Positions 29,344 through 61,614 of a DNA stretch of 64,000 nucleotides are shown in pieces. The notes beneath the pieces were generated by a model, which was not told the origin of the DNA, made no database searches, and saw only the letters and a list, made by a program, of their open reading frames with translations. Every line of letters starts with the position of its first letter. Positions within the stretch are counted from its first letter, which is position 1. Both the position numbers and the translations under genes were made by a program. Location of the stretch: the NCBI RefSeq assembly GCF_056712565.1, contig NZ_CM160072.1; one strand, given 5' to 3'.

Positions 29344-29826
29344 ATGATAAAGCACCTGCTAGCACCCCTGATTTTCACCTCGCTAATACTTACTGGCTGC
29401 CAGTCCCCTCAGGGAAAGTTTACTCCTGAGCAAGTCGCCGCTATGCAATCTTATGGATTTACTGAATCCGCCGGCGACTGGTCGCTGGGCTTATCAGATG
29501 CCATTCTGTTTGCAAAAAATGACTACAAATTGCTCCCGGAAAGCCAGCAACAGATCCAAACCATGGCAGCCAAATTGGCCTCGACAGGGCTAACACATGC
29601 CCGTATGGATGGACACACCGACAACTATGGTGAAGACAGTTACAACGAAGTCTTATCATTGAAACGGGCGAATGTCGTGGCCGATGCATGGGCTATGGGT
29701 GGACAAATTCCGCGCAGCAATCTCACCACACAGGGTTTAGGAAAAAAATATCCCATAGCCAGTAACAAGACCGCCCAGGGCCGCGCCGAGAACCGCCGCG
29801 TCGCAGTGGTGATTACAACCCCTTAA
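29344..29826 (+). CDS. yfiB: OmpA-family lipoprotein YfiB
   Basis: 160 aa; lipobox LTGC; OmpA-like C-terminus. Confidence 0.9.
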   Translation: MIKHLLAPLIFTSLILTGCQSPQGKFTPEQVAAMQSYGFTESAGDWSLGLSDAILFAKNDYKLLPESQQQIQTMAAKLASTGLTHARMDGHTDNYGEDSYNEVLSLKRANVVADAWAMGGQIPRSNLTTQGLGKKYPIASNKTAQGRAENRRVAVVITTP

Positions 29827-29998: not shown

Positions 29999-31048
29999 TT
30001 ATGCAACCTCTGCCGCCATATTGTCGCCAACATACAGCGATAACGGATTAAGGGTTACAGCTTGTTCAAGGTGGTCAGGAGCAAAGTGTGCATACTTCAT
30101 TGTTTCTCGAATATTGGCATGCCCGAGAATTTTCTGCAGTACCAGTATATTCCCGCCGTTCATCATAAAATGCGCACCAAAAGTATGACGCAAAACGTGC
30201 GTCTTCTGCCCTTCCGTCAATTCAATATTCGTTAGTTTGAGCATCTTCTTAAACTCCTGATAGCAGGGTTTAAACATTCTGCCTTGACGTACGGACAACT
30301 CGTCGTACAGCCATTTAGGAATAGGAACTGTGCGATTCTTCTTACCTTTGGTTTTGGTGAACGTCAGTTTATATGGAGAAAGTTGAGGGCGGGTCAATCT
30401 CTCCGCTTCCCCCCATCGAGCGCCGGTTGCAAGGCACACCTTAACAATCATGGTGAGGTCTTCTTTGCCGTATTGCTCGCAGGCTCGAAACAGCTCCGGG
30501 AGCTGAGACAAAGTTAGCCAGGACATTTCTTTCTCAGCCTCTTTGAATACTCGGATCCCATCAAGTGGATTGGGTAGGCTCCACTCCCCTAACCGGCGGA
30601 GCTCATTAAACACTGCTTCTAGGTATTGTTGTTCGCGATTGACGGTTATAGGTTTGGCGATCCATTTCGAGGGGTCTTTATGATAACCGTTGTCTATTTC
30701 ACCACGTAATCGACGGTCACGATAATGAGCCCAGTCTTTCGCGGTAAGGCGAGATGCAATCGGGTCACCAAGCCCATTACATACGATTTGAAGCTTTGCT
30801 AACCTCGACTTACTGGCGACTAACGCTTGACCGTGCAAATTGTGCCAAAGCTGAATAATCTCGCTTAAGCGTCGGCGGTCTTCTTTCTTGCCAAGCCACG
30901 GCTTATCTTCACTCTCGCTTTTGGTAAATGCTTCGAATGCCTCGGCCTCACCTTTGGTATTGAATTGCCGACGTATACGCCGCCCTTCTCGACCATTTGG
31001 ATAGAGCTCGCATAACCATTTGCCATTTTTTTGCTTACTTACAGTCAT
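29999..31048 (-). CDS. int: phage integrase (tyrosine recombinase, 186/P2 Int family)
   Basis: 349 aa; MTVSKQKNGKWLCELYPNG...; catalytic region HVLRHTF...LGHANIRETMKYAHF. Confidence 0.9.
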   Translation of the reverse strand: MTVSKQKNGKWLCELYPNGREGRRIRRQFNTKGEAEAFEAFTKSESEDKPWLGKKEDRRRLSEIIQLWHNLHGQALVASKSRLAKLQIVCNGLGDPIASRLTAKDWAHYRDRRLRGEIDNGYHKDPSKWIAKPITVNREQQYLEAVFNELRRLGEWSLPNPLDGIRVFKEAEKEMSWLTLSQLPELFRACEQYGKEDLTMIVKVCLATGARWGEAERLTRPQLSPYKLTFTKTKGKKNRTVPIPKWLYDELSVRQGRMFKPCYQEFKKMLKLTNIELTEGQKTHVLRHTFGAHFMMNGGNILVLQKILGHANIRETMKYAHFAPDHLEQAVTLNPLSLYVGDNMAAEVA

Positions 31049-31070: not shown

Positions 31071-31409
31071 TTATTCGCAAAGTGCTGTTGCGGCATCCAT
31101 TACAGGATCCAAAGGAATTTTTACACCTGCATACTCTGGACTGTCTTTCCAAACAGCATCAATATTGCTCCCCTCAAGCTTTCCAGACTTTACTCCATCA
31201 ATAGCAAAACCATTTAATGGGTATCGGTCATCAGTTGCTTTGTCGTATACAAAGGCATACTTACCGTTAACGCAAGACACCGTAGCTTTTTCAAAAGTTA
31301 ACGGCCAATCCTCACCAAACTTAGCGCCATCTAAATCCTGTGTTTTTTCAGCGGCTAAGGAGCCAAAAGAAAAGGTAAGAAGCATAGCTAAAAAGAGTTT
31401 ACGTTTCAT
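31071..31409 (-). CDS. small secreted protein of unknown function (cargo gene between int and repressor)
   Basis: Start at MKRKLFLAMLLTFSFGSLAA (signal peptide); two Cys in mature part; overlaps the repressor gene's 3' end by ~10 bp. Confidence 0.6.
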   Translation of the reverse strand: MKRKLFLAMLLTFSFGSLAAEKTQDLDGAKFGEDWPLTFEKATVSCVNGKYAFVYDKATDDRYPLNGFAIDGVKSGKLEGSNIDAVWKDSPEYAGVKIPLDPVMDAATALCE

Positions 31410-31417
31410 AATTTCCC

Positions 31418-32278
31418 TTATACGTGTTTTTCCAATGTGAAAACTACAACCCCGGCAGGCGTAATGTCGGTAATGTTGCATTCAAACTCAGCAGACTTAT
31501 TTGACAACCTGACTTTTCCACCAGGTAAACGAATTACATCAAAAACATCAAGAGCGCCGTCGATATCAATTAACCAGCGACCATTACTTATATTCGAAGC
31601 AGAACAGTCGACAAGCCAAGAGGCAGCTACACCGTCAACAAAAATCAATTCCCCTGAGTTAGAAGGAATCATTGAGGGGTCAGGATGCCACGTTCCTGCA
31701 TCCTTAAGCTCACCAGATTCAAGACGAGATTTTTTAATAGAAAAACCAGATGTGACATCTTCCCTGTTAGCTCGCATTTGCCCCTTGCCTGTTGCTAACC
31801 ATTCCAGTGACGTATCGGTATCAAGAGCGCATGTAACAACAACATCACCAGGGAAAAAATCTCGCCTTACCCATGTGCTAATTGTGCCAGAGGAAATGCC
31901 GAGCAAATCACCGAGCTCCTTTTGCATGGTAAAGCCATACGCATCAAGAATCCTACGCAAAACGGTTTTACCACCATTCGTCATAATCTCGTCATAAAGC
32001 TCTTTGCCTTTTAACTTGCAACTGGCTCGCTCGTGATTTGCATTTGCAAGCTCTCCATTTACAAGCCAATTGATATCAGCTCCCGTGTCAAGACAACACC
32101 TAACTATGACATTGCCAGGTATTGCATCACGCTGAACCCAGCCGCTAACGCTGTGTTTAGCGATACCTAGCAGGTCAGCCAAATCCTTTTGCATCTTGAC
32201 CCCATAGGCTGACATTAAGCGTTCCAATACGCCGTTCGTTGCACTAACACGCCACTGTACATCAAGCTCAGAACTCAT
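31418..32278 (-). CDS. 186 CI-like immunity repressor with tandemly duplicated N-terminal DNA-binding domain
   Basis: 286 aa; two homologous ~60-aa segments (LERLMSAYGVKMQKDLADLLGIAKHSVSGWVQRD... and LRRILDAYGFTMQKELGDLLGISSGTISTWVRRD...); C-terminus resembles 186 CI (GRWLIDIDGA...LPGGKVRL...FEC). Confidence 0.8.
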   Translation of the reverse strand: MSSELDVQWRVSATNGVLERLMSAYGVKMQKDLADLLGIAKHSVSGWVQRDAIPGNVIVRCCLDTGADINWLVNGELANANHERASCKLKGKELYDEIMTNGGKTVLRRILDAYGFTMQKELGDLLGISSGTISTWVRRDFFPGDVVVTCALDTDTSLEWLATGKGQMRANREDVTSGFSIKKSRLESGELKDAGTWHPDPSMIPSNSGELIFVDGVAASWLVDCSASNISNGRWLIDIDGALDVFDVIRLPGGKVRLSNKSAEFECNITDITPAGVVVFTLEKHV

Positions 32279-34340: not shown

Positions 34341-36563
34341 TTGGCTGTTCAATTCGCTTATCCGTGGAACGTCCCACGGTCGGCAATCTCCAGCCCATAC
34401 CTTACTTATGAGCAACAGCATCGCCGCGACCGTATGTTCGCGGCTTTGCTGCATGCAAAAAAGGTGCTTTCTCTCCAGCCCGACTGCGTGCGGTTAGATG
34501 TTTATCGCACTGCTGCGGTGCTGGAGCAAAATCAGGGTAGTCAACGAGCCAATGCATTTTTAATCAGCTTCTGCAAAAAGGCATTGCCGCGTCTTGAACT
34601 GGTCGCAAAAAAATACGAATGCGCTGGTATCAACAGCAAGGTATCAACCGCTGTTTTTGGAAGTCATTTTGATACTCAGCAAATGCAATATCTGTCGTCA
34701 CGCATGGTTAATATGGTCGCCCGATATAACCGTCTCCCGGACATGTCGCGCGCTGATGTTGACCTGTTGGCCGCTGATATTGCTAATTTCATTCGTGGTG
34801 AACTTGCCAACATTAATGACCACGGATTCGGCGAGCTTAAAACGCTGTACACCTGGTATATTCGTGCTGGCTTTATTTCCCTCCAATTCAACGTTATCCC
34901 ACCACATTGGGAGCGGGTTGAAAAAAAATATGTCGGTGCGGATGAAATCGCACCGGCTATCGCCAAAATGTTTAACGATGGGTGGTGGCGCGGTCGTTTG
35001 CGCCGTGTAGCAGCTACGTGGCGCGAACACCTGCAAATTGCAGTCGGCAACGTCAGTAAGAAAAAAAACACTTACGCGAGTAAAAACTGCGTGACTGACT
35101 GGCGTGAACAAAAGCGCCGCACTCGTGAATTTCTCAAAGGTCTGGATCTCGAAGACGAAGACGGCAACCGTATCAGCCTAATTGAAAAATATGATGGCTC
35201 AGTTGCTAACCCTGCGATTCGCCGCTGTGAGCTCATGACCCGCATTCGTGGGTTTGAAAACATCTGTAATGAGCTCGGTTATGTCGGTGAGTTTTACACT
35301 CTAACCGCGCCGTCAAAATATCACGCCACGACTAAAGCCGGTTACCGTAACAGCAAATGGAGCGGTGCCAGCCCGGCTGACACGCAAAACTATCTAACCG
35401 GTATCTGGGCGCGTATCCGTGCCAAACTACATCGGGAAGATGTCCGTATTTTCGGTATTCGTGTCGCCGAGCCCCATCACGACGGCACTCCACACTGGCA
35501 CATGCTGATGTTCATGCTGCCGGAAGATGTTGAATATGTTCGCTCCATCGTCCGTAAATACGCATGGAAAGAAGACCGCCACGAACTGAAAAGCGATAAA
35601 TCCAAAAAAGCACGTTTCCACGCGGAGTCCATTGACCCGGAGAAAGGCAGCGCAACCGGCTATGTTGCTAAATACATTTCAAAAAATATCGACGGTTATG
35701 CTCTCGATGGTGAAACCGATGATGAAAGCGGTGAGCTGCTGAAAGAGACAGCCCCCGCCGTTTCAGCATGGGCTGCGCGCTGGCACATCCGTCAGTTTCA
35801 GTTTATTGGTGGTGCGCCGGTGACGGTTTACCGTGAGTTGCGTCGCCTCGCTGATACCGAAACCGCGCACGGTCTGAGCGTTGAGTTTGCCGCCGTCCAT
35901 GATGCCGCCGACGCTGGTGACTGGGCTGGTTATGTTAATGCTCAGGGTGGGCCGTTTGTCCGTCGCGATGATTTACAGGTGCGCACACTGTATGAACCGC
36001 GTACCGAGCTTAATCAGTACGGTGAGGAAACGGTATGTATTAAGGGGGTCTACGATTCCTCCATAGGTGCAGGAAGCCCGATTTTAACCCGGCTCACTCA
36101 GTGGAAGATTGTTCCGAAGCGTGCTGTTGATTTGCCCGTTGACCTTCAGGACGGCAAAGCCGTCCCTCGGAGTTCTGTCAATAACTGTACGGGAAGCGAA
36201 AGCGATCCACCGATACTGGATTTAACAAAACCACTGAGTCGGCGTGAAAGACGAGAATTGACCAACCGACTCAGGAAGCAAAAGCCAGCAGCACGGCGAA
36301 AATTCATCCACGGAACGGATGAGCAAAACGCAGCTATAGCTAAAACTATCGATGAGATACATCTGACAACCGGCATTAATATCAGCCGGGGCGAAGCCCT
36401 GCACCTGATGGCCGGTGGTAAAAGTTGTTTTGATGGTAAATGGCTACGCGGAACGGCCAAAGGAGAAATATTTTCCGCAGCACCATCGCATGAGGCTAAA
36501 GCTCGGAAAATCCTTAATCGTGTTGCGGCGATGGCTGAAGCATTAAAACCAATACATGAGTAA
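34341..36563 (+). CDS. replication initiation endonuclease (P2 gpA / 186 RepA family)
   Basis: 740 aa; position and size; HUH-like region (TPHWHMLMFM) and tandem tyrosines (YVAKYISKNIDGYAL). Confidence 0.8.
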   Translation: MAVQFAYPWNVPRSAISSPYLTYEQQHRRDRMFAALLHAKKVLSLQPDCVRLDVYRTAAVLEQNQGSQRANAFLISFCKKALPRLELVAKKYECAGINSKVSTAVFGSHFDTQQMQYLSSRMVNMVARYNRLPDMSRADVDLLAADIANFIRGELANINDHGFGELKTLYTWYIRAGFISLQFNVIPPHWERVEKKYVGADEIAPAIAKMFNDGWWRGRLRRVAATWREHLQIAVGNVSKKKNTYASKNCVTDWREQKRRTREFLKGLDLEDEDGNRISLIEKYDGSVANPAIRRCELMTRIRGFENICNELGYVGEFYTLTAPSKYHATTKAGYRNSKWSGASPADTQNYLTGIWARIRAKLHREDVRIFGIRVAEPHHDGTPHWHMLMFMLPEDVEYVRSIVRKYAWKEDRHELKSDKSKKARFHAESIDPEKGSATGYVAKYISKNIDGYALDGETDDESGELLKETAPAVSAWAARWHIRQFQFIGGAPVTVYRELRRLADTETAHGLSVEFAAVHDAADAGDWAGYVNAQGGPFVRRDDLQVRTLYEPRTELNQYGEETVCIKGVYDSSIGAGSPILTRLTQWKIVPKRAVDLPVDLQDGKAVPRSSVNNCTGSESDPPILDLTKPLSRRERRELTNRLRKQKPAARRKFIHGTDEQNAAIAKTIDEIHLTTGINISRGEALHLMAGGKSCFDGKWLRGTAKGEIFSAAPSHEAKARKILNRVAAMAEALKPIHE

Positions 36564-36637
36564 TTCATATCCATATCATGCACATACAGCAATCGCTCTA
36601 TTCGTTTTTTTTCTTCCCATCTTTTGCCAATACGTGC

Positions 36638-36657
36638 TACTGTATAAATATACAGTA
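36638..36657. promoter_or_regulatory. LexA box (SOS operator)
   Basis: TACTGTATAAATATACAGTA = CTGT-N8-ACAG consensus, ~20 bp upstream of the 36677 ORF. Confidence 0.8.
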
Positions 36658-36676
36658 ACCCTATGGGAGGGATTTC

Positions 36677-36859
36677 ATGGTTGGCGAACATTTCAGCCGA
36701 ACGCAGCAAAAGTGGGCTTGTGTGCAATTTATTGCCGAGGTATCTCTGATTGCAAACTGCAAGCCATCAGACTTAAAGCTCGCGCTCACTCTCATTGCAG
36801 ACCTAGCAAACAGCGAAAATAACGAAACCGAAGATGATAATTTTTATAAGGCTGATTAG
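36677..36859 (+). CDS. small SOS-controlled protein, possible Tum-like antirepressor
   Basis: 60 aa; GGAGGG RBS; directly downstream of the LexA box; position equivalent to 186 tum. Confidence 0.4.
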   Translation: MVGEHFSRTQQKWACVQFIAEVSLIANCKPSDLKLALTLIADLANSENNETEDDNFYKAD

Positions 36860-36862
36860 ATT

Positions 36863-37093
36863 ATGAGAATCAATATCACGTTGGATAAAGAGCAAAAATT
36901 AGGGCAACAGATCATTGATGCTTTTCAGAATGAAATAACACATCGAGTACAATGCGTTTTTCCTGCAACAAAAGTTAACGTTAAGAAAGGGTCAATGACT
37001 GGTGTAGAGGCTATCGGATTCGATAAAGAGGCGGACAGAGAAACATTAGGCAGCATATTACAAGAGATTTGGGAAGACGATAGCTGGCGTTAA
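36863..37093 (+). CDS. DinI-family protein
   Basis: 76 aa; MRINITLDK...QEIWEDDSW resembles E. coli DinI (MRIEVTIAK...QETWESADDW). Confidence 0.8.
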   Translation: MRINITLDKEQKLGQQIIDAFQNEITHRVQCVFPATKVNVKKGSMTGVEAIGFDKEADRETLGSILQEIWEDDSWR

Positions 37094-37292
37094 ACATAAT
37101 AACCGTGCTGGCGCAAAAACTAGCTTTTTGCGTCGGCGGGGTTGAGTAACGAGCCCACGAGGCTTAAGTCCTGCCTTTCAAAATTTCTCAATGTGCTATT
37201 GATGACACGCCCATGATTAATGAGGCATGACCTGAGATGGTTTTATAGTGGCGTTTTGACGGCACTGATTAAAATTCATTGAGGGTGATAAT

Positions 37293-37502
37293 ATGCATCG
37301 ACTACCAGGTGAAATACCGCAGCACAAAACTAAAAGCATCAAACTGATGGCCATCGTTCATCGTTTGCAGCAGATAATGGTCAATGAGAATTTGACACCC
37401 GCAGAGCTGGTCGGGTGTGCCGAAATAGTCAGGGATAATTACGGCAAGCTGGATAGCATCAGCAGGTCGAAACAATACGCACCACCACCACGTCGACGAT
37501 AG
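37293..37502 (+). CDS. hypothetical protein
   Basis: 69 aa; GAGGG RBS; flanked by two copies of a ~30-bp repeat. Confidence 0.4.
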   Translation: MHRLPGEIPQHKTKSIKLMAIVHRLQQIMVNENLTPAELVGCAEIVRDNYGKLDSISRSKQYAPPPRRR

Positions 37503-37576
37503 CAAACGCCGCCGGTTCTGAAACTCGCTTTCAGTACTGGCGGGGGTTGAACAACGAGCACCGCGAGGCGTTAGCA

Positions 37577-38518
37577 TTAATTTATTTTTAATGAATGGTA
37601 ATCTCGTGAGTTGACCGAAGATTTGAGATAACTGCAATCATTAACCGACAGTATTGCCGCTAATAGGCGACATACCAGTGCCTGCATTTGCAGCAATATA
37701 TCGTTACCATATTGACTGTTGTTAACACTTGAGAAACCAAGCGGTTGACCAAAAAAAATAGCCTCATGAAAATTATCATTGCGGATGCCAGAAATGTTTT
37801 TTTTACCTGACACCCATGTGGGGATTGATAACCCATAAATTTTGCACATCCACTTTAATCGCTTGTAATGATTTGGCGGTTTTTTATCAGGAGCCTTGTC
37901 ATGCTCAGCCCACGACAAAGCAAAGCACCCATCAAGTGCCATGTAAAGATACTGGAATTTTTCAAAAGAAAGGTATTGTGGGTTTTGAGATAAGAATAGT
38001 GCATGCACCACTGCCGCAATTCTTTTGGGGGAGTGCGCATCCTTATGTTTGCCATTTATATAATTAAGAGCCAGTTCTATGACTTCTTTTTCAGAGCATC
38101 CAACGAGAATAAAGTCGGTTAACTTAGTGGGCTTGATAGTGGTTGCATCTAAAAAACCAGCGTCAGTGGTTGTCAATCTTATTCCCTTGAAAAAAGAAAG
38201 GCACCACACAATAAAGTTGAGAGTTTCTAACGAGGATGTATTTTTTAATTTTAGTGTGTGCGTTTTGGGCATACTGAATACTCGGTGACTATAAGGCATT
38301 GTGGATATGCCACCATTAAGGTTATATACATCTTGGTTTCCAGGGTATATCCAACCTTTCACAACGTTTTTATCATTATTAACACGCTCCACTTTCTCAT
38401 TGAGACCAGGTAAAGTAAGCAAAGAAAATTGTTCAGTCTCAATGTTAACTTCTACTGGATAGTATCCAAACTCCGACATAATCTCATTGGGTTGCTGTTC
38501 GTCAACTTCACCTTGCAT
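37577..38518 (-). CDS. hypothetical 313-aa protein at the cos-proximal old/tin position
   Basis: Long AT-rich ORF; GGAG RBS; 16-bp perfect palindrome CTCGATAATTATCGAG at 38541-38556 upstream; no motif recognised. Confidence 0.7.
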   Translation of the reverse strand: MQGEVDEQQPNEIMSEFGYYPVEVNIETEQFSLLTLPGLNEKVERVNNDKNVVKGWIYPGNQDVYNLNGGISTMPYSHRVFSMPKTHTLKLKNTSSLETLNFIVWCLSFFKGIRLTTTDAGFLDATTIKPTKLTDFILVGCSEKEVIELALNYINGKHKDAHSPKRIAAVVHALFLSQNPQYLSFEKFQYLYMALDGCFALSWAEHDKAPDKKPPNHYKRLKWMCKIYGLSIPTWVSGKKNISGIRNDNFHEAIFFGQPLGFSSVNNSQYGNDILLQMQALVCRLLAAILSVNDCSYLKSSVNSRDYHSLKIN

Positions 38519-38755
38519 ATCTTTCTCCGTTCAAAAATAGGCTCGATAATTATCGAGAGGCTATCATGTTTGGAAAGAACCAATGTCCGTAATTTTTGTA
38601 AATTTAAGGTGATTTATCAATAAATAAGCTGTGCATGCAACAGGTGCATGGTTCTGCATGCGCCGGGGTTACCCGTTTTGTACGTGCGCCGCAAGAGCTG
38701 GCGGGGATCCAGAGTGGTCATGCAACTGCATTAAAACCGCCCCATAAAGCGGGCA

Positions 38756-38774
38756 GGCGTGGCGGGGAAAGCAT
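38756..38774. other. cos (cohesive-end site), 186-type
   Basis: GGCGTGGCGGGGAAAGCAT, 17/19 identical to P2 cohesive end GGCGAGGCGGGGAAAGCAC as recalled; sits between replication/accessory region and portal gene. Confidence 0.65.
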
Positions 38775-38993
38775 TGCGCGTCAGCAGTGATGCGTAATAA
38801 TAAAAATTATCCTCTGAGCGCGTCGTGATGGCGCTGTCGTGGTCGCTGCTGGTTCGTTGGTGGTCGGGTGTGTTCGTGCGCGTGAGACGCATCTGATGCG
38901 TGATGGTGGTGTGCATGGAAAAGCCACCAGGAGCAGCGGCTTTACAGGAGTGGCAGGATTCAAACTGCTAATTATGTTTCTACTATGATTAAA

Positions 38994-39998
38994 CTAATTT
39001 ACATGTATGTAGAGTTCACCGTCGCCAGACCAATCGGGACACTCTAAAACAAGCCCAAACTGCTTGAATATTTCATCAATGATTATTGTTATCTCCCGAA
39101 AATCACCAAAACCTGTAATGTGCTGGTCATTAAACTTCCCATAAAGATTCTGAAAAGCAATGCCTAATTCTGATAATTGATATCTTATCTTTGAGTTGGA
39201 TAGTGTAAGGGATAGCTTTGGATCGTATTCTTTAATATTGATGTTTAGAGAATGGACATAACCCATCGCATAAGCATAAGAGTTGATGATTAGCCTGATA
39301 CGTTTTTTTACTTCGAGATACATGTCATTCAGAGAAATATTACCGTACTTATAACCCCAGATGAGTTTTTCAATCTCGTCAGATACTTCATTTACAACAG
39401 TGTCAAGATTCTCTAAAAATAAATCGATAGTTTCTTGAGGGGCAGACCCCGAAGACATGTAATTAGCGAGATATTCAGACCATGCACGCGTGGCTGAGAT
39501 AAGAAGCGCGCTACCATACTCGTTGACTGTAAAGTTTTGGGCTAAGCATGTTAGTAAGTTTTTTTCATGTACGTGCACTAATTCATGGTGAATGCGATGG
39601 ATGACTGCGAGGTATCCTTCTTCTTTCAGTTTTAAGAAGCTACCATCATTGAAAAGCTCAACAAAAAAATCAATCGATAGCACAAGGGTATATTCTTCAC
39701 ATAGCCCATCATTGCCAATTTTTGTTACTAACTGCCCGACGGCTGCGCCCTGTTTACTATTGGTAAATGAACTAGGGGATTTGTGTTGGTAAGAGGATGT
39801 TACCTTTTGAAGAGCTTCACTGAAGTTATAGGAAACAATCACGCATTTTAATTTGGAGATATCAAGATTGAGATTTTTTGTTAAAGCTCGGATAGCTTCT
39901 AGTGTGAAATTACCGATATTATTTGCTTCTTGCTCAGTAGCGAAACCTTCGAGGGTTATTTTAAAATCAGTTTCCAAAATATTAATCTCCGCGCCCAT
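38994..39998 (-). CDS. hypothetical 334-aa protein with HExxH zinc-metallopeptidase-like motif (cargo between cos and portal)
   Basis: AT-rich ORF; motif VIHRIHHELVHVHEKN; own sigma70-like promoter upstream. Confidence 0.7.
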   Translation of the reverse strand: MGAEINILETDFKITLEGFATEQEANNIGNFTLEAIRALTKNLNLDISKLKCVIVSYNFSEALQKVTSSYQHKSPSSFTNSKQGAAVGQLVTKIGNDGLCEEYTLVLSIDFFVELFNDGSFLKLKEEGYLAVIHRIHHELVHVHEKNLLTCLAQNFTVNEYGSALLISATRAWSEYLANYMSSGSAPQETIDLFLENLDTVVNEVSDEIEKLIWGYKYGNISLNDMYLEVKKRIRLIINSYAYAMGYVHSLNINIKEYDPKLSLTLSNSKIRYQLSELGIAFQNLYGKFNDQHITGFGDFREITIIIDEIFKQFGLVLECPDWSGDGELYIHVN

Positions 39999-40016
39999 TG
40001 TTTTGATATTCGATGC

Positions 40017-40045
40017 ACTATAGCTTTCGCAGATTGCATCTTCAA
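40017..40045 (-). promoter_or_regulatory. sigma70-like promoter for the 334-aa gene
   Basis: Minus-strand TTGAAG-17 bp-TATAGT, ~20-50 bp upstream of the ATG. Confidence 0.55.
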
Positions 40046-40075
40046 TAATGAGCGCAGAGATTGTGGCGGCCTAAG

Positions 40076-41122
40076 TTATTCTGGGTTGTCGAGGGTGTAC
40101 TCTTTGAATCTGATGACCTCCATGCCGAGCCAGTCATTTACCTCCCTGAACCTGTCCTGTAGCGGCGACAGCTCGTTGCGCACAAATACCTTTGCCACCT
40201 TCTCAACATCACCGAGTGAACCGATATTCTCGGGCTTGCCGCCCATGAGCTGGAACGGTACGCGGTGCGCGTCCATCAGATCGGCGGCACTGGCCTTCTT
40301 GATGTTGAAAAAGTCATCCTTTGTGGCGACCTCGCTCAGTGGCACGATTTTGATGCCGTCCGGTTTTCCGCCGGGAGCGTAGAAAAACAGGTTCTTAAAG
40401 TTGCCGAGCCCTTTTGAGTTGCGCATCGCCTCGCGCAGCGATTCGACGTCGGTCGCGCTCTGCGCCGGGTCAGTCACATACATGATGTAACCCGCGTGCG
40501 CGCCGTTCTGATAATACTTGCGGCGGAACAGCGTCGCGGATTCATTCAGCCAGGCGGAATTTAGCGCGCTGAGATATTCGGGCAGGCCGTAAATCTCCTG
40601 ATTAATGTCGGGCTCCAGCAGGTGAAACACGGTATCAGGCGCGAACTCGTGCGGCTGGGTGAAGTTTTCCACAAACCAGAAAATCGAATCGTCGACTCCG
40701 CGTCGGGTGTATTTGGCTGGCGAGGCCAGCAGTTTGATTAACTGGCCGGTGACGCTGTGGCGCTGCTCAAGAAAGGCGTTACCGAACACCAGATAATCGA
40801 GCGCAAAGCGGCTGAAATCCTGACGGGATAACAACGGGTGCGGAATGTAGGTGCTCGCGAGCACGTTACGCTTAACATAAATTGGCGAGCTGTGATGCAC
40901 GGCAGAGCGCAGGCTCTTTGCCAGCCCTGAGAAGCTGACCGGCGGCTCGTACCATTTGCCGTTACTGATGCACTCGACGTAATCCAGAATGTCGCGCTTA
41001 TCGAGTACCGGCACCGGCTCGCCGAAGGTGAACGCTGTCGTTTTTGGCGGTGCGCTGGCGGTCAGTTGTTGTGGTTTGCTGGCCTTTTGTGCGTTGGCTT
41101 TACGGGATTTTTGTTTACCCAT
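40076..41122 (-). CDS. portal protein (P2 gpQ family)
   Basis: 348 aa; size and position adjacent to terminase ATPase. Confidence 0.85.
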   Translation of the reverse strand: MGKQKSRKANAQKASKPQQLTASAPPKTTAFTFGEPVPVLDKRDILDYVECISNGKWYEPPVSFSGLAKSLRSAVHHSSPIYVKRNVLASTYIPHPLLSRQDFSRFALDYLVFGNAFLEQRHSVTGQLIKLLASPAKYTRRGVDDSIFWFVENFTQPHEFAPDTVFHLLEPDINQEIYGLPEYLSALNSAWLNESATLFRRKYYQNGAHAGYIMYVTDPAQSATDVESLREAMRNSKGLGNFKNLFFYAPGGKPDGIKIVPLSEVATKDDFFNIKKASAADLMDAHRVPFQLMGGKPENIGSLGDVEKVAKVFVRNELSPLQDRFREVNDWLGMEVIRFKEYTLDNPE

Positions 41123-60900: not shown

Positions 60901-61119
60901 ATGATGCACTGCCCGTTATGCCAAAACGCCGCACATGCTCGTACTAGCCGGTACCTTAGCACCGAAACGAAAGAACGTTATCACCAATGCCAGAACATAA
61001 ATTGCGGATGTACATTTATCACTTTTGAGACGCTATCAAGATTCATTGTGAAACCGGGCACTGTTGATCCTGCTCCGCCACATCCCATCAGAAACCAACA
61101 ACAGCAACTTTGGCTTTGA
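60901..61119 (+). CDS. ogr: Ogr/Delta-type zinc-finger late transcription activator
   Basis: 72 aa; CPLCQ...-22 aa-...CQNINC zinc finger; terminator hairpin CCTGCTTCGGCAGG+T-run follows. Confidence 0.85.
   Translation: MMHCPLCQNAAHARTSRYLSTETKERYHQCQNINCGCTFITFETLSRFIVKPGTVDPAPPHPIRNQQQQLWL

Positions 61120-61263: not shown

Positions 61264-61614
<351 letters not shown>

What the first reader, a model, noticed from the sequence alone, without database searches (positions are those of the whole stretch)
36630..37100. LexA-box-controlled small ORF plus DinI homologue: SOS-inducible module of the 186 type
A near-consensus LexA box (TACTGTATAAATATACAGTA) lies ~20 bp upstream of a 60-aa ORF, followed by a DinI-like gene. 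This matches the 186 arrangement (LexA-controlled tum with a DinI-like orf), implying SOS induction via an antirepressor rather than repressor cleavage. The 60-aa protein is much shorter than 186 Tum, so its role is uncertain.
Basis: partly seen in the sequence, partly recalled or inferred. Interest (0 to 1): 0.45.

Follow-up and report, generated by a model that had tools for sequence, protein, structure and literature searches.

The report
Split tum SOS-induction operon of prophage
This is the known DNA-damage switch of a 186/PSP3-type prophage in E. coli: a LexA-repressed promoter drives a small antirepressor (TumA) and a separate DinI-like protein (TumB), an arrangement already described for phage PSP3, so it is ordinary.

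Summary
A LexA box (TACTGTATAAATATACAGTA, 36638-36657) is unique in the window and lies 19 nt before a 60-aa ORF (36677-36859). A 76-aa DinI-family ORF (36863-37093) follows.

The interpretation, a 186-type SOS module working through an antirepressor, is supported. The 60-aa ORF is TumA, the counterpart of the N-terminal half of 186 Tum. The DinI-like ORF is TumB, the counterpart of the C-terminal half. In 186 the two are fused into one 146-aa protein. Here, as in PSP3, an in-frame TAG separates them.

- TumA is 98% identical to PSP3 TumA. The locus is 99.6% identical to phage vB_EcoM-613R3, where the ORF is annotated "UV induction of prophage".
- The promoter and operator DNA is nearly identical to the LexA-regulated p95 promoter of 186.
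- The prophage repressor is a 186-family CI without a self-cleavage domain. In the phage collection, TumA at 98% identity or more occurs only with this CI type.
- The literature already states that tum is split in PSP3 and Fels-2, and that the upstream PSP3 gene carries the antirepressor activity.

Verdict: already known, low interest. Side observations are the conserved in-frame TAG, a mosaic joint between tumA and tumB, TumA-only variants, and a CI with two helix-turn-helix domains.

The parts
36614..36619 (+). -35 hexamer TTCCCA of the p95-like promoter
   Evidence: Placed by alignment with the annotated -35 (TTCACA) of 186 p95. The match to consensus is weak, and the generic promoter scan did not call it.
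36638..36643 (+). -10 hexamer TACTGT of the p95-like promoter, lying inside the LexA box
   Evidence: Identical to the annotated -10 of 186 p95. The 18-nt spacer differs from 186 at one base.
36638..36657 (+). LexA (SOS) box TACTGTATAAATATACAGTA
   Evidence: One mismatch to consensus, unique in the window, 0 of 100 shuffles. Same position as the annotated LexA site of 186, and identical in PSP3, Midge, RCIP0057 and 613R3.
36666..36670 (+). Shine-Dalgarno GGAGG for tumA
   Evidence: Read directly from the sequence. It lies 6 nt before the ATG.
36677..36859 (+). tumA: 60-aa antirepressor, the counterpart of the N-terminal half of 186 Tum
   Evidence: 98% identical to PSP3 TumA. Matches phrog_1993 at E 1.1e-31, the family also hit by the N-terminal half of 186 Tum. 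Smith-Waterman z 9.4 against 186 Tum residues 1-70. No Pfam, NCBIfam or PDB match. The AF2 model is a two-helix hairpin with an acidic disordered tail, pLDDT 73.
36857..36865 (+). Junction TAG-ATT-ATG: the tumA amber stop, one codon, then the tumB start, all in one reading frame
   Evidence: Read from the sequence. The junction is identical in the five split-tum relatives checked (PSP3, vB_EcoM-613R3, Midge, RCIP0057, E. coli PKF8). A tblastn alignment of whole 186 Tum runs through the stop (query 14-146, E 3e-35).
36863..37093 (+). tumB: 76-aa DinI-family protein, the counterpart of the C-terminal half of 186 Tum
   Evidence: Pfam DinI at E 2.1e-17 and phrog_189 'RecA filament binding protein DinI'. 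70% identical to the C-terminal half of 186 Tum, 46% to PSP3 TumB and 32% to E. coli DinI. Matches PDB 1GHH/7YWA. Scores 51.4 bits, below the 111-bit NCBIfam equivalog cut-off for chromosomal DinI.
37100..37144 (+). Strong hairpin directly after tumB, a possible operon-end terminator or stabiliser
   Evidence: RNA fold gives -26.9 kcal/mol, z -5.95, with 0 of 200 shuffles as stable. It stands in the same relative place as the partial terminator t95a of 186 but has a different sequence and no clear U-tract. A related sequence also follows tumA in the tumB-less variant L008.
31418..32278 (-). cI: 286-aa immunity repressor, the inferred target of TumA
   Evidence: Two Phage_CI_repr HTH domains plus Phage_CI_C, and no S24 peptidase. 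Matches the 186 CI structure 2FJR at E 1e-21. 98% identical to PSP3 CI. In the phage collection this CI type and TumA at >=98% identity occur in the same ten records (seven distinct phages).

Best explanation
The region is the SOS-induction operon of an apparently complete 186/PSP3-type (Peduoviridae) prophage. The prophage sits between a yfiB-like gene and rplS in an E. coli chromosome.

Proposed mechanism:
1. In the lysogen, host LexA binds the box at 36638-36657. The box overlaps the -10 hexamer and the start region of a p95-like promoter and keeps it shut.
2. DNA damage activates RecA, LexA cleaves itself, and the promoter fires.
3. tumA and tumB are transcribed together. TumB is probably translated by coupling, because the tumA stop and the tumB start are 3 nt apart.
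4. TumA, a small acidic two-helix protein, binds the non-cleavable 186-family CI repressor and stops it binding its operators. The lytic promoter is then derepressed and the prophage is induced.
5. TumB, a DinI-like protein, acts on RecA filaments to tune the strength or timing of the SOS signal and is probably dispensable for induction.

Shown here: the sequence features, the homologies, the synteny and the co-occurrence of TumA with this CI type. Taken from the literature on relatives: LexA control of p95 and the antirepressor activity of Tum and TumA. Inferred: that TumA binds this particular CI, the translational coupling, and the role of TumB.
For: - The LexA box is unique and near-consensus.
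- The promoter and operator are nearly identical to the annotated SOS-dependent p95 promoter and LexA site of 186, although the coding sequence diverges to 34% amino-acid identity.
- The locus is 99.6% identical to phage vB_EcoM-613R3, where the ORF is annotated 'UV induction of prophage', and 80% identical to PSP3, where the genes are annotated tumA and tumB.
- TumA is homologous to the N-terminal half of 186 Tum. TumB is a DinI-family protein, 70% identical to the C-terminal half of 186 Tum.
- CI belongs to the 186 family and has no autocleavage domain.
- TumA at >=98% identity occurs in exactly the ten phage records (seven distinct phages) that carry this 286-aa CI type. The next-closest CI (36% identical, Yersinia phage vB_YenM_31.17) comes with the next-closest TumA (42%).
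- TumA-only variants exist (E. coli RM14516, Erwinia phage ENT90), which argues that TumA works without a DinI partner.
- Literature: in 186, Tum is expressed from LexA-regulated p95 and inhibits CI (PMC7708051). Tum is split by a stop codon in PSP3 and Fels-2, and in PSP3 the upstream gene carries the antirepressor activity (PMC3121763).
- In E. coli HS, an in-frame deletion of tum, or a lexA(Ind-) allele, abolishes mitomycin C induction of the P2-like prophage (PMC11195241). The deletion primers match the stand-alone small ORF of the Fels-2 type that precedes a separate DinI gene.
Against: - No experiment was done on this prophage. LexA binding, TumA-CI binding and inducibility are all inferred.
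- The -35 and -10 hexamers are poor matches to consensus, and the generic promoter scan did not find the promoter.
- Pairwise BLASTP of TumA against 186 Tum gave no hit. The homology rests on profile and shuffle statistics.
- The PSP3 TumA activity is cited in the literature only as a personal communication.
- The E. coli HS and Fels-2 small Tum is only about 12% identical to this TumA (Smith-Waterman z 2.6), so that experiment bears on the architecture, not on this protein.
Confidence: 0.88

Rival explanations
1. The split is a defect. A nonsense mutation (TAG) inactivated a once-fused tum, so the 60-aa ORF is a dead fragment, the prophage is not SOS-inducible, and only the DinI-like product matters.
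For: tumA and tumB lie in one frame, separated only by TAG plus one codon. The pair is colinear with fused 186 Tum.
Against: - The same split, with an intact 60-aa ORF at >=98% identity, is present in ten records of isolated phages and in E. coli prophages.
- tumA keeps its own strong Shine-Dalgarno sequence.
- TumA persists where tumB is absent.
- TumA tracks the CI type.
- The literature assigns antirepressor activity to the upstream PSP3 gene.
Confidence: 0.04
2. The active antirepressor is a 138-aa TumA-TumB fusion made by readthrough of the in-frame TAG, either low-level natural readthrough or an amber suppressor. The split ORFs alone are modulators. This would mirror 186, which makes full-length Tum together with shorter C-terminal products.
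For: The in-frame TAG-ATT-ATG junction is conserved in the five split-tum relatives checked. The 186 record annotates several products from one tum frame: Tum and the truncated forms Tum95.2, 95.4 and 95.5.
Against: - All PSP3-type junctions are nearly identical DNA, so their conservation counts as one event, not independent support.
- The Fels-2 and E. coli HS type split is out of frame (TGA, 10 nt, ATG), yet deleting the small ORF alone there blocks induction.
- TumA-only variants have nothing to read into.
Confidence: 0.04
3. The module is an SOS-modulating cargo that benefits the host (DinI-like control of RecA) and has no role in prophage induction. The 60-aa ORF would be an unrelated small protein.
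For: DinI homologues under LexA boxes occur in many prophages. In the Gifsy phages, non-polar deletions of the dinI homologue did not change induction.
Against: TumA is homologous to the antirepressor half of 186 Tum. It co-occurs with the CI type. CI has no cleavage domain, so the prophage needs another route to SOS induction.
Confidence: 0.03

Closest known systems
tumA-tumB operon of Salmonella phage PSP3 (GenBank AY135486), with the same genes in phages SEN1, SW9/SI22, Midge, RCIP0057 and vB_EcoM-613R3
   Same: - Identical LexA box and promoter region.
- A 60-aa TumA with one residue different.
- The same TAG-ATT-ATG in-frame junction.
- A DinI-like TumB, the same position after gene A, and the same 286-aa CI with two HTH domains (98% identical).

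   Different: TumB here is only 46% identical to PSP3 TumB but 70% identical to the C-terminal half of 186 Tum. This operon is therefore a mosaic of a PSP3-type tumA and a 186-type DinI module. The cargo downstream of tumB also differs.
SOS operon of coliphage 186 (p95 promoter, LexA site, tum, orf97)
   Same: - Promoter and LexA box homologous almost base for base.
- Location directly after gene A.
- Tum N-terminal half homologous to TumA, and C-terminal half homologous to TumB.
- A CI repressor of the same family as target.
- An RNA hairpin after the operon's DinI-coding end.

   Different: - 186 encodes one 146-aa polypeptide with an approximately 20-residue linker, plus internal-start products. 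Here there are two ORFs.
- 186 CI has one HTH domain (192 aa). Here CI has two (286 aa).
- 186 has orf97 downstream. Here there is an unrelated 69-aa ORF.

Split tum of Fels-2 (STM2728 plus a DinI-like gene) and of the P2-like prophage of E. coli HS
   Same: A LexA-box promoter after gene A, then a stand-alone small ORF, then a separate DinI-family gene. In E. coli HS, deleting the small ORF abolishes mitomycin C induction.
   Different: The small protein is only about 12% identical to this TumA. The two genes are out of frame and 10 nt apart. Fels-2 shows two LexA-like boxes.
LexA-controlled small antirepressors of Gifsy prophages (GfoA, GftA) with an adjacent dinI homologue
   Same: The same logic: LexA box, then a small antirepressor that binds a non-cleavable repressor, with a DinI homologue in the same operon (PMC3121763).
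   Different: The gene order is reversed (dinI first). The proteins were not compared here, and the phages are of a different, lambdoid, type.

Membership tests
LexA-repressed (SOS) promoter of Enterobacteria | A 20-bp operator matching TACTG(TA)5CAGTA, with invariant CTG-N10-CAG and an AT-rich spacer | tested here: met
   19 of 20 positions match at 36638-36657. The site is unique in the window, and 0 of 100 shuffles gave a match.
LexA-repressed (SOS) promoter of Enterobacteria | The operator overlaps promoter elements, so that bound LexA blocks initiation | tested here: met
   By alignment with the annotated 186 p95 promoter, the -10 hexamer TACTGT forms the first six bases of the box. The promoter itself is inferred by homology and was not detected by the generic scan.
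LexA-repressed (SOS) promoter of Enterobacteria | LexA binding and damage-inducible transcription | not testable with these tools
   This needs EMSA or footprinting and a reporter or RNA measurement after mitomycin C or UV.
Tum/TumA antirepressor of 186-like phages | Sequence homology to the N-terminal (non-DinI) half of 186 Tum | tested here: met
   Both match phrog_1993, at E 1.1e-31 and 1.5e-23. Smith-Waterman z 9.4, with 0 of 3000 shuffles as good. 98% identical to PSP3 TumA. The BLASTP tool gave no hit.
Tum/TumA antirepressor of 186-like phages | First gene of a LexA-controlled operon directly downstream of replication gene A | tested here: met
   Gene A ends at 36563, the box is at 36638 and tumA starts at 36677. 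The synteny is the same in 186, PSP3 and Fels-2.
Tum/TumA antirepressor of 186-like phages | A cognate 186-family CI repressor that lacks RecA-stimulated self-cleavage | tested here: met
   CI carries Phage_CI_repr (twice) and Phage_CI_C, with no Peptidase_S24. It matches 186 CI structure 2FJR. Whether it is actually non-cleavable was not tested.
Tum/TumA antirepressor of 186-like phages | Binds CI, prevents operator binding, and is required for SOS induction | not testable with these tools
   Indirect support only: exact co-occurrence of TumA with this CI type, and the literature on 186, PSP3 and E. coli HS.
Full-length (fused) 186 Tum | A single polypeptide of about 146 aa carrying both the antirepressor and the DinI-like halves | tested here: not met
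   A TAG stop at 36857-36859 separates the halves. This locus is the split, PSP3-type form.
DinI family (Pfam PF06183) | A match to the DinI profile over the whole domain | tested here: met
   PF06183 at E 2.1e-17, residues 15-75. PDB 1GHH at E 4.5e-8. phrog_189.
DinI family (Pfam PF06183) | Orthology with chromosomal E. coli DinI (NCBIfam equivalog NF007893) | tested here: not met
   51.4 bits against a cut-off of 111, and 32% identity. It is a phage DinI-like paralogue, not DinI itself.
DinI family (Pfam PF06183) | Binding to RecA filaments through the acidic C-terminal helix | not testable with these tools
   The acidic C-terminal segment (LQEIWEDDSW) is conserved in the alignment. Binding was not tested.

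The most novel reading that the evidence does not exclude
The strictly in-frame TAG-ATT-ATG junction might not be a mere relic. Low-level readthrough of the amber codon, or an amber-suppressor host, would make a 138-aa TumA-TumB fusion equivalent to 186 Tum. The phage would then produce both split and fused forms, the mirror image of the full-length plus truncated Tum products of 186.

A second, more probable but less surprising reading starts from the conservation pattern. TumA is >=98% identical in phages whose CI differs mainly in its first HTH domain (56% identity, against 88-89% for the second). One antirepressor could therefore cross-induce hetero-immune PSP3-type prophages.
Probability: 0.05. 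Interest if true: 0.35.

Novelty: already known. Interest (0 to 1): 0.1.

Why it matters
The finding matters little beyond annotation. It shows that this E. coli prophage should be SOS-inducible through an antirepressor rather than by repressor cleavage. It also gives a name (TumA) and a probable function to a 60-aa ORF that RefSeq annotates as 'hypothetical protein' in the listed E. coli genomes that carry the module (80 of 5426 complete genomes match). The split, fused and TumA-only architectures found side by side illustrate gene fusion or fission in a regulatory module. None of this is a new principle.

Tried and rejected
- Pairwise BLASTP of the 60-aa ORF against 186 Tum gave no hit. I replaced it with a PHROG profile comparison and a shuffle-calibrated Smith-Waterman score.
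- The generic sigma-70 scan did not find the p95-like promoter. I placed the promoter by homology with the 186 annotation instead.
- Pfam, NCBIfam, PADLOC and PDB sequence searches found nothing for TumA.
- An Rfam scan of 36000-40100 found nothing.
- Bunny, Liu and Roth 2002, the primary source for the split tum statement, is not held in the library. I cite it only through Lemire et al. 2011.
- A whole-word 'TumA' literature search returned mostly unrelated uses of the word.
- A search for att direct repeats of 20 nt or more at the prophage ends found none.
- One alignment call and one over-length BLAST call (63) were mistakes and gave nothing.
- An AF2 model of TumA gave only a generic two-helix hairpin at moderate confidence. 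I ran no fold search, because such a fold is uninformative.
- I did not run the very large protein-database searches, because the verdict did not depend on them.
- Other ORFs overlapping the region are 36556-36822 (+, 88 aa), 36146-36727 (-, 193 aa) and 36661-36795 (-, 44 aa). I judged them spurious. The two long ones run across the end of gene A and the conserved promoter/LexA box, and all three lie in alternative frames of tumA. None is annotated in the related phage records I inspected.

Full report
**Observation.**
- The 20-mer TACTGTATAAATATACAGTA lies at 36638-36657. It differs from the LexA consensus TACTG(TA)5CAGTA at one position.
- It is the only site in the 64-kb window within three mismatches. 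None of 100 dinucleotide-preserving shuffles produced one.
- The looser pattern CTGT-N8-ACAG occurs three times, but the other two sites have GC-rich spacers.
- Nineteen bases downstream, after a GGAGG at 36666-36670, a 60-codon ORF starts (36677-36859).
- A 76-codon ORF follows at 36863-37093.

**Context.**
- The window is E. coli chromosome. The module is 100% identical to strain D3 and matches 80 of 5426 complete E. coli genomes, always on the chromosome.
- The module lies in an apparently complete P2/186-like prophage between a yfiB-like gene and rplS. The gene order runs: integrase 29999-31048 (-), cI 31418-32278 (-), an apl/cox-like gene, cII and fil (named from the annotations of the homologous PSP3, Midge and vB_EcoM-613R3 early regions; the ORFs here were not tested individually), gene A 34341-36563 (+), the module, cargo, a block of long ORFs from 40076 to 60825 laid out like the P2/186 late genes (only the portal ORF 40076-41122 is named in a related record; the rest were not searched), and an ogr-like gene 60901-61119.
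- The region 36500-37300 is 99.6% identical to Escherichia phage vB_EcoM-613R3 and 80% identical to Salmonella phage PSP3. It aligns in two pieces (73.7%) with coliphage 186.

**What the two ORFs are.**
- The PSP3 record annotates the homologous genes as tumA ('similar to 5' end 186 tum; UV induction of prophage') and tumB ('similar to dinI and 3' end of 186 tum').
- The 613R3 record calls them 'UV induction of prophage' and 'DNA-damage-inducible protein I'.
- The 60-aa protein differs from PSP3 TumA at one residue. It aligns with residues 1-52 of the 146-aa 186 Tum at 34% identity.
- The BLASTP tool found no pairwise hit between the 60-aa protein and 186 Tum. The relationship is nevertheless real:
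  - Both the 60-aa protein and the first 61 residues of 186 Tum match the same PHROG profile, phrog_1993, end to end, at E 1.1e-31 and 1.5e-23.
  - A Smith-Waterman score of 60 stands 9.4 sd above 3000 shuffles, none of which reached it. The control against the C-terminal half of Tum is at background.
- The 76-aa protein is a DinI-family protein: Pfam PF06183 at E 2.1e-17, phrog_189 and PDB 1GHH at E 4.5e-8.
- The 76-aa protein is 70% identical to the C-terminal half of 186 Tum, 46% to PSP3 TumB and 32% to E. coli DinI. It scores below the NCBIfam equivalog cut-off for chromosomal DinI.
186 Tum is a fusion of the two proteins that are encoded separately here.

**Promoter and operator.**
- The 186 record annotates p95 ('SOS-dependent transcription of SOS operon'), with -35 TTCACA, an 18-nt spacer, -10 TACTGT, and a LexA site that starts at the -10.
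- The window aligns with this almost base for base: TTCCCA at 36614-36619, a spacer with one difference, and TACTGT at 36638-36643. The adjacent coding sequence, by contrast, has diverged to 34% amino-acid identity.
- A generic sigma-70 scan does not call this promoter, because both hexamers are weak. The promoter assignment rests on homology.
- A very stable hairpin (37100-37144, -26.9 kcal/mol, z -5.95) follows tumB. It stands where 186 has the partial terminator t95a, but its sequence is different.

**The target.**
- The prophage repressor (286 aa) has two Phage_CI_repr helix-turn-helix domains, a Phage_CI_C domain, and no S24 peptidase domain.
- It matches the solved 186 CI structure 2FJR at E 1e-21. 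Like 186 CI, it is not expected to be cleaved in the SOS response.
- In the phage collection, the records that carry TumA at 98% identity or more are vB_EcoM-613R3, PSP3, SEN1, SI22, SW9, Midge and RCIP0057. These are exactly the records that carry this 286-aa CI type, at 73-100% identity.
- The next-closest CI (36%, Yersinia phage vB_YenM_31.17) comes with the next-closest TumA (42%). This co-occurrence is what an antirepressor and its cognate repressor should show.

**Literature.**
- Lemire et al. [quoted passage not shown] That last point is a personal communication from G. E. Christie, cited through Bunny, Liu and Roth 2002, which I could not read.
- In E. coli HS, an in-frame deletion of tum, or lexA(Ind-), abolishes mitomycin C induction of the P2-like prophage (PMC11195241). 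The deletion primers match the Fels-2-type arrangement, in which a stand-alone 62-aa ORF is followed after 10 nt by a separate DinI-family gene.
- A small stand-alone Tum is therefore experimentally sufficient in a related architecture. That protein, however, is only about 12% identical to the one here.

**Mechanism.**
1. LexA occludes the p95-like promoter.
2. DNA damage removes LexA, and tumA-tumB is transcribed.
3. TumA sequesters CI and derepresses the lytic promoter.
4. TumB modulates RecA filaments and is probably dispensable.

- An AF2 model of TumA shows two helices (8-25 and 30-49) and a disordered acidic tail, at moderate confidence (pLDDT 73).
- The steps involving protein binding are inferred from relatives and are not shown here.

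**Architectural variants seen along the way.**
- Fused tum: 186, PHB48, BIS20, EtG and many Yersinia phages.
- Split and in frame, with the junction TAG-ATT-ATG identical in the five split-tum relatives whose junction I read (PSP3, vB_EcoM-613R3, Midge, RCIP0057, E. coli PKF8). A tblastn alignment of whole 186 Tum runs through the stop.
- Split and out of frame: Fels-2 and E. coli HS (TGA, 10 nt, then ATG) and Yersinia phage MLG42 (12-nt gap).
- TumA only, with no DinI gene: E. coli RM14516 and Erwinia phage ENT90.
- The operon here is a mosaic of a PSP3-type tumA joined to a 186-type DinI module. In the listed E. coli hits H88-H93, about 99% identity stops roughly 40 nt into tumB, and 54 of the 80 matching genomes cover less than 80% of the query.

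**Rivals.**
- A dead nonsense-mutated tum is unlikely. TumA is conserved in isolated phages, keeps its own ribosome-binding site, survives without tumB and tracks the CI type.
- A functional readthrough fusion cannot be excluded. It has no independent support, because all in-frame junctions are one lineage and the Fels-2 type is out of frame.
- A pure host-benefit DinI cargo is contradicted by TumA's homology to the antirepressor half of Tum and by a CI without a cleavage domain.

**Verdict.** The element is the already described split tum (tumA-tumB) SOS-induction operon of PSP3-type phages. Interest is low.

Noticed in passing
window 36857-36865: tumA and tumB are in the same reading frame, separated only by TAG and one ATT codon. 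The junction is identical in the five split-tum relatives checked. Readthrough would recreate a 186-like fused Tum of 138 aa.
   Followed up: partly
window 36560-37140; L007, L008, L009, L016: The tum operon is modular. tumA here is of PSP3 type (98%) but tumB is of 186 type (70%, against 46% to PSP3 TumB). In the listed E. coli hits H88-H93 about 99% identity stops roughly 40 nt into tumB, where the DinI gene differs. Some elements (E. coli RM14516, Erwinia phage ENT90) carry tumA with no DinI gene at all.
   Followed up: partly
window 31418-32278 (-): The CI repressor has two tandem Phage_CI_repr HTH domains plus the 186-type C-terminal domain (286 aa, against 192 aa in 186). 186 CI aligns only with the second HTH and the C-terminal domain. 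Among phages sharing the same TumA, the first HTH is 56% identical, the second 88-89% and the C-terminal domain 72-84%. This suggests that the first HTH sets immunity specificity while TumA targets the conserved part.
   Followed up: partly
window 37577-38518 (-) and 38994-39998 (-): Two cargo ORFs (313 aa, phrog_5937; 334 aa, phrog_11743, which contains an HELVH motif) lie between the tum operon and the portal gene. From my own knowledge, P2-like phages carry variable anti-phage genes at this position. Neither ORF has a Pfam, NCBIfam or PADLOC match. Both are also present in phage vB_EcoM-613R3.
   Followed up: partly
window 37293-37502 (+): A 69-aa ORF homologous to PSP3 orf37 (phrog_11386, function unknown) lies downstream of the post-tumB hairpin. 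It could be a distal member of the LexA-controlled transcript, as orf97 is in 186, but it is unrelated to orf97.
   Followed up: no
window 31071-31481 (-): A 136-aa ORF with a signal-peptide-like N-terminus lies between int and cI. Its homologues are annotated DUF2511 / periplasmic protein in phages Midge and SW9. It is probably a lysogenic-conversion gene in the cI-int operon.
   Followed up: no
L014 640-690 (Fels-2): Upstream of its small tum ORF, Fels-2 has one full LexA-like CTG-N10-CAG box (TACTGTAAATATAAACAGT) followed by a second, partial LexA-like motif (ATATGTACAGTA). The PSP3 and 186 types have a single box.
   Followed up: no
window 29344-29826 and 61264-61611: The prophage lies between a yfiB-like gene and rplS. 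No direct repeat of 20 nt or more flanks it, so the att core must be shorter. 186 itself integrates elsewhere, into the 3' end of ileY according to its record.
   Followed up: partly
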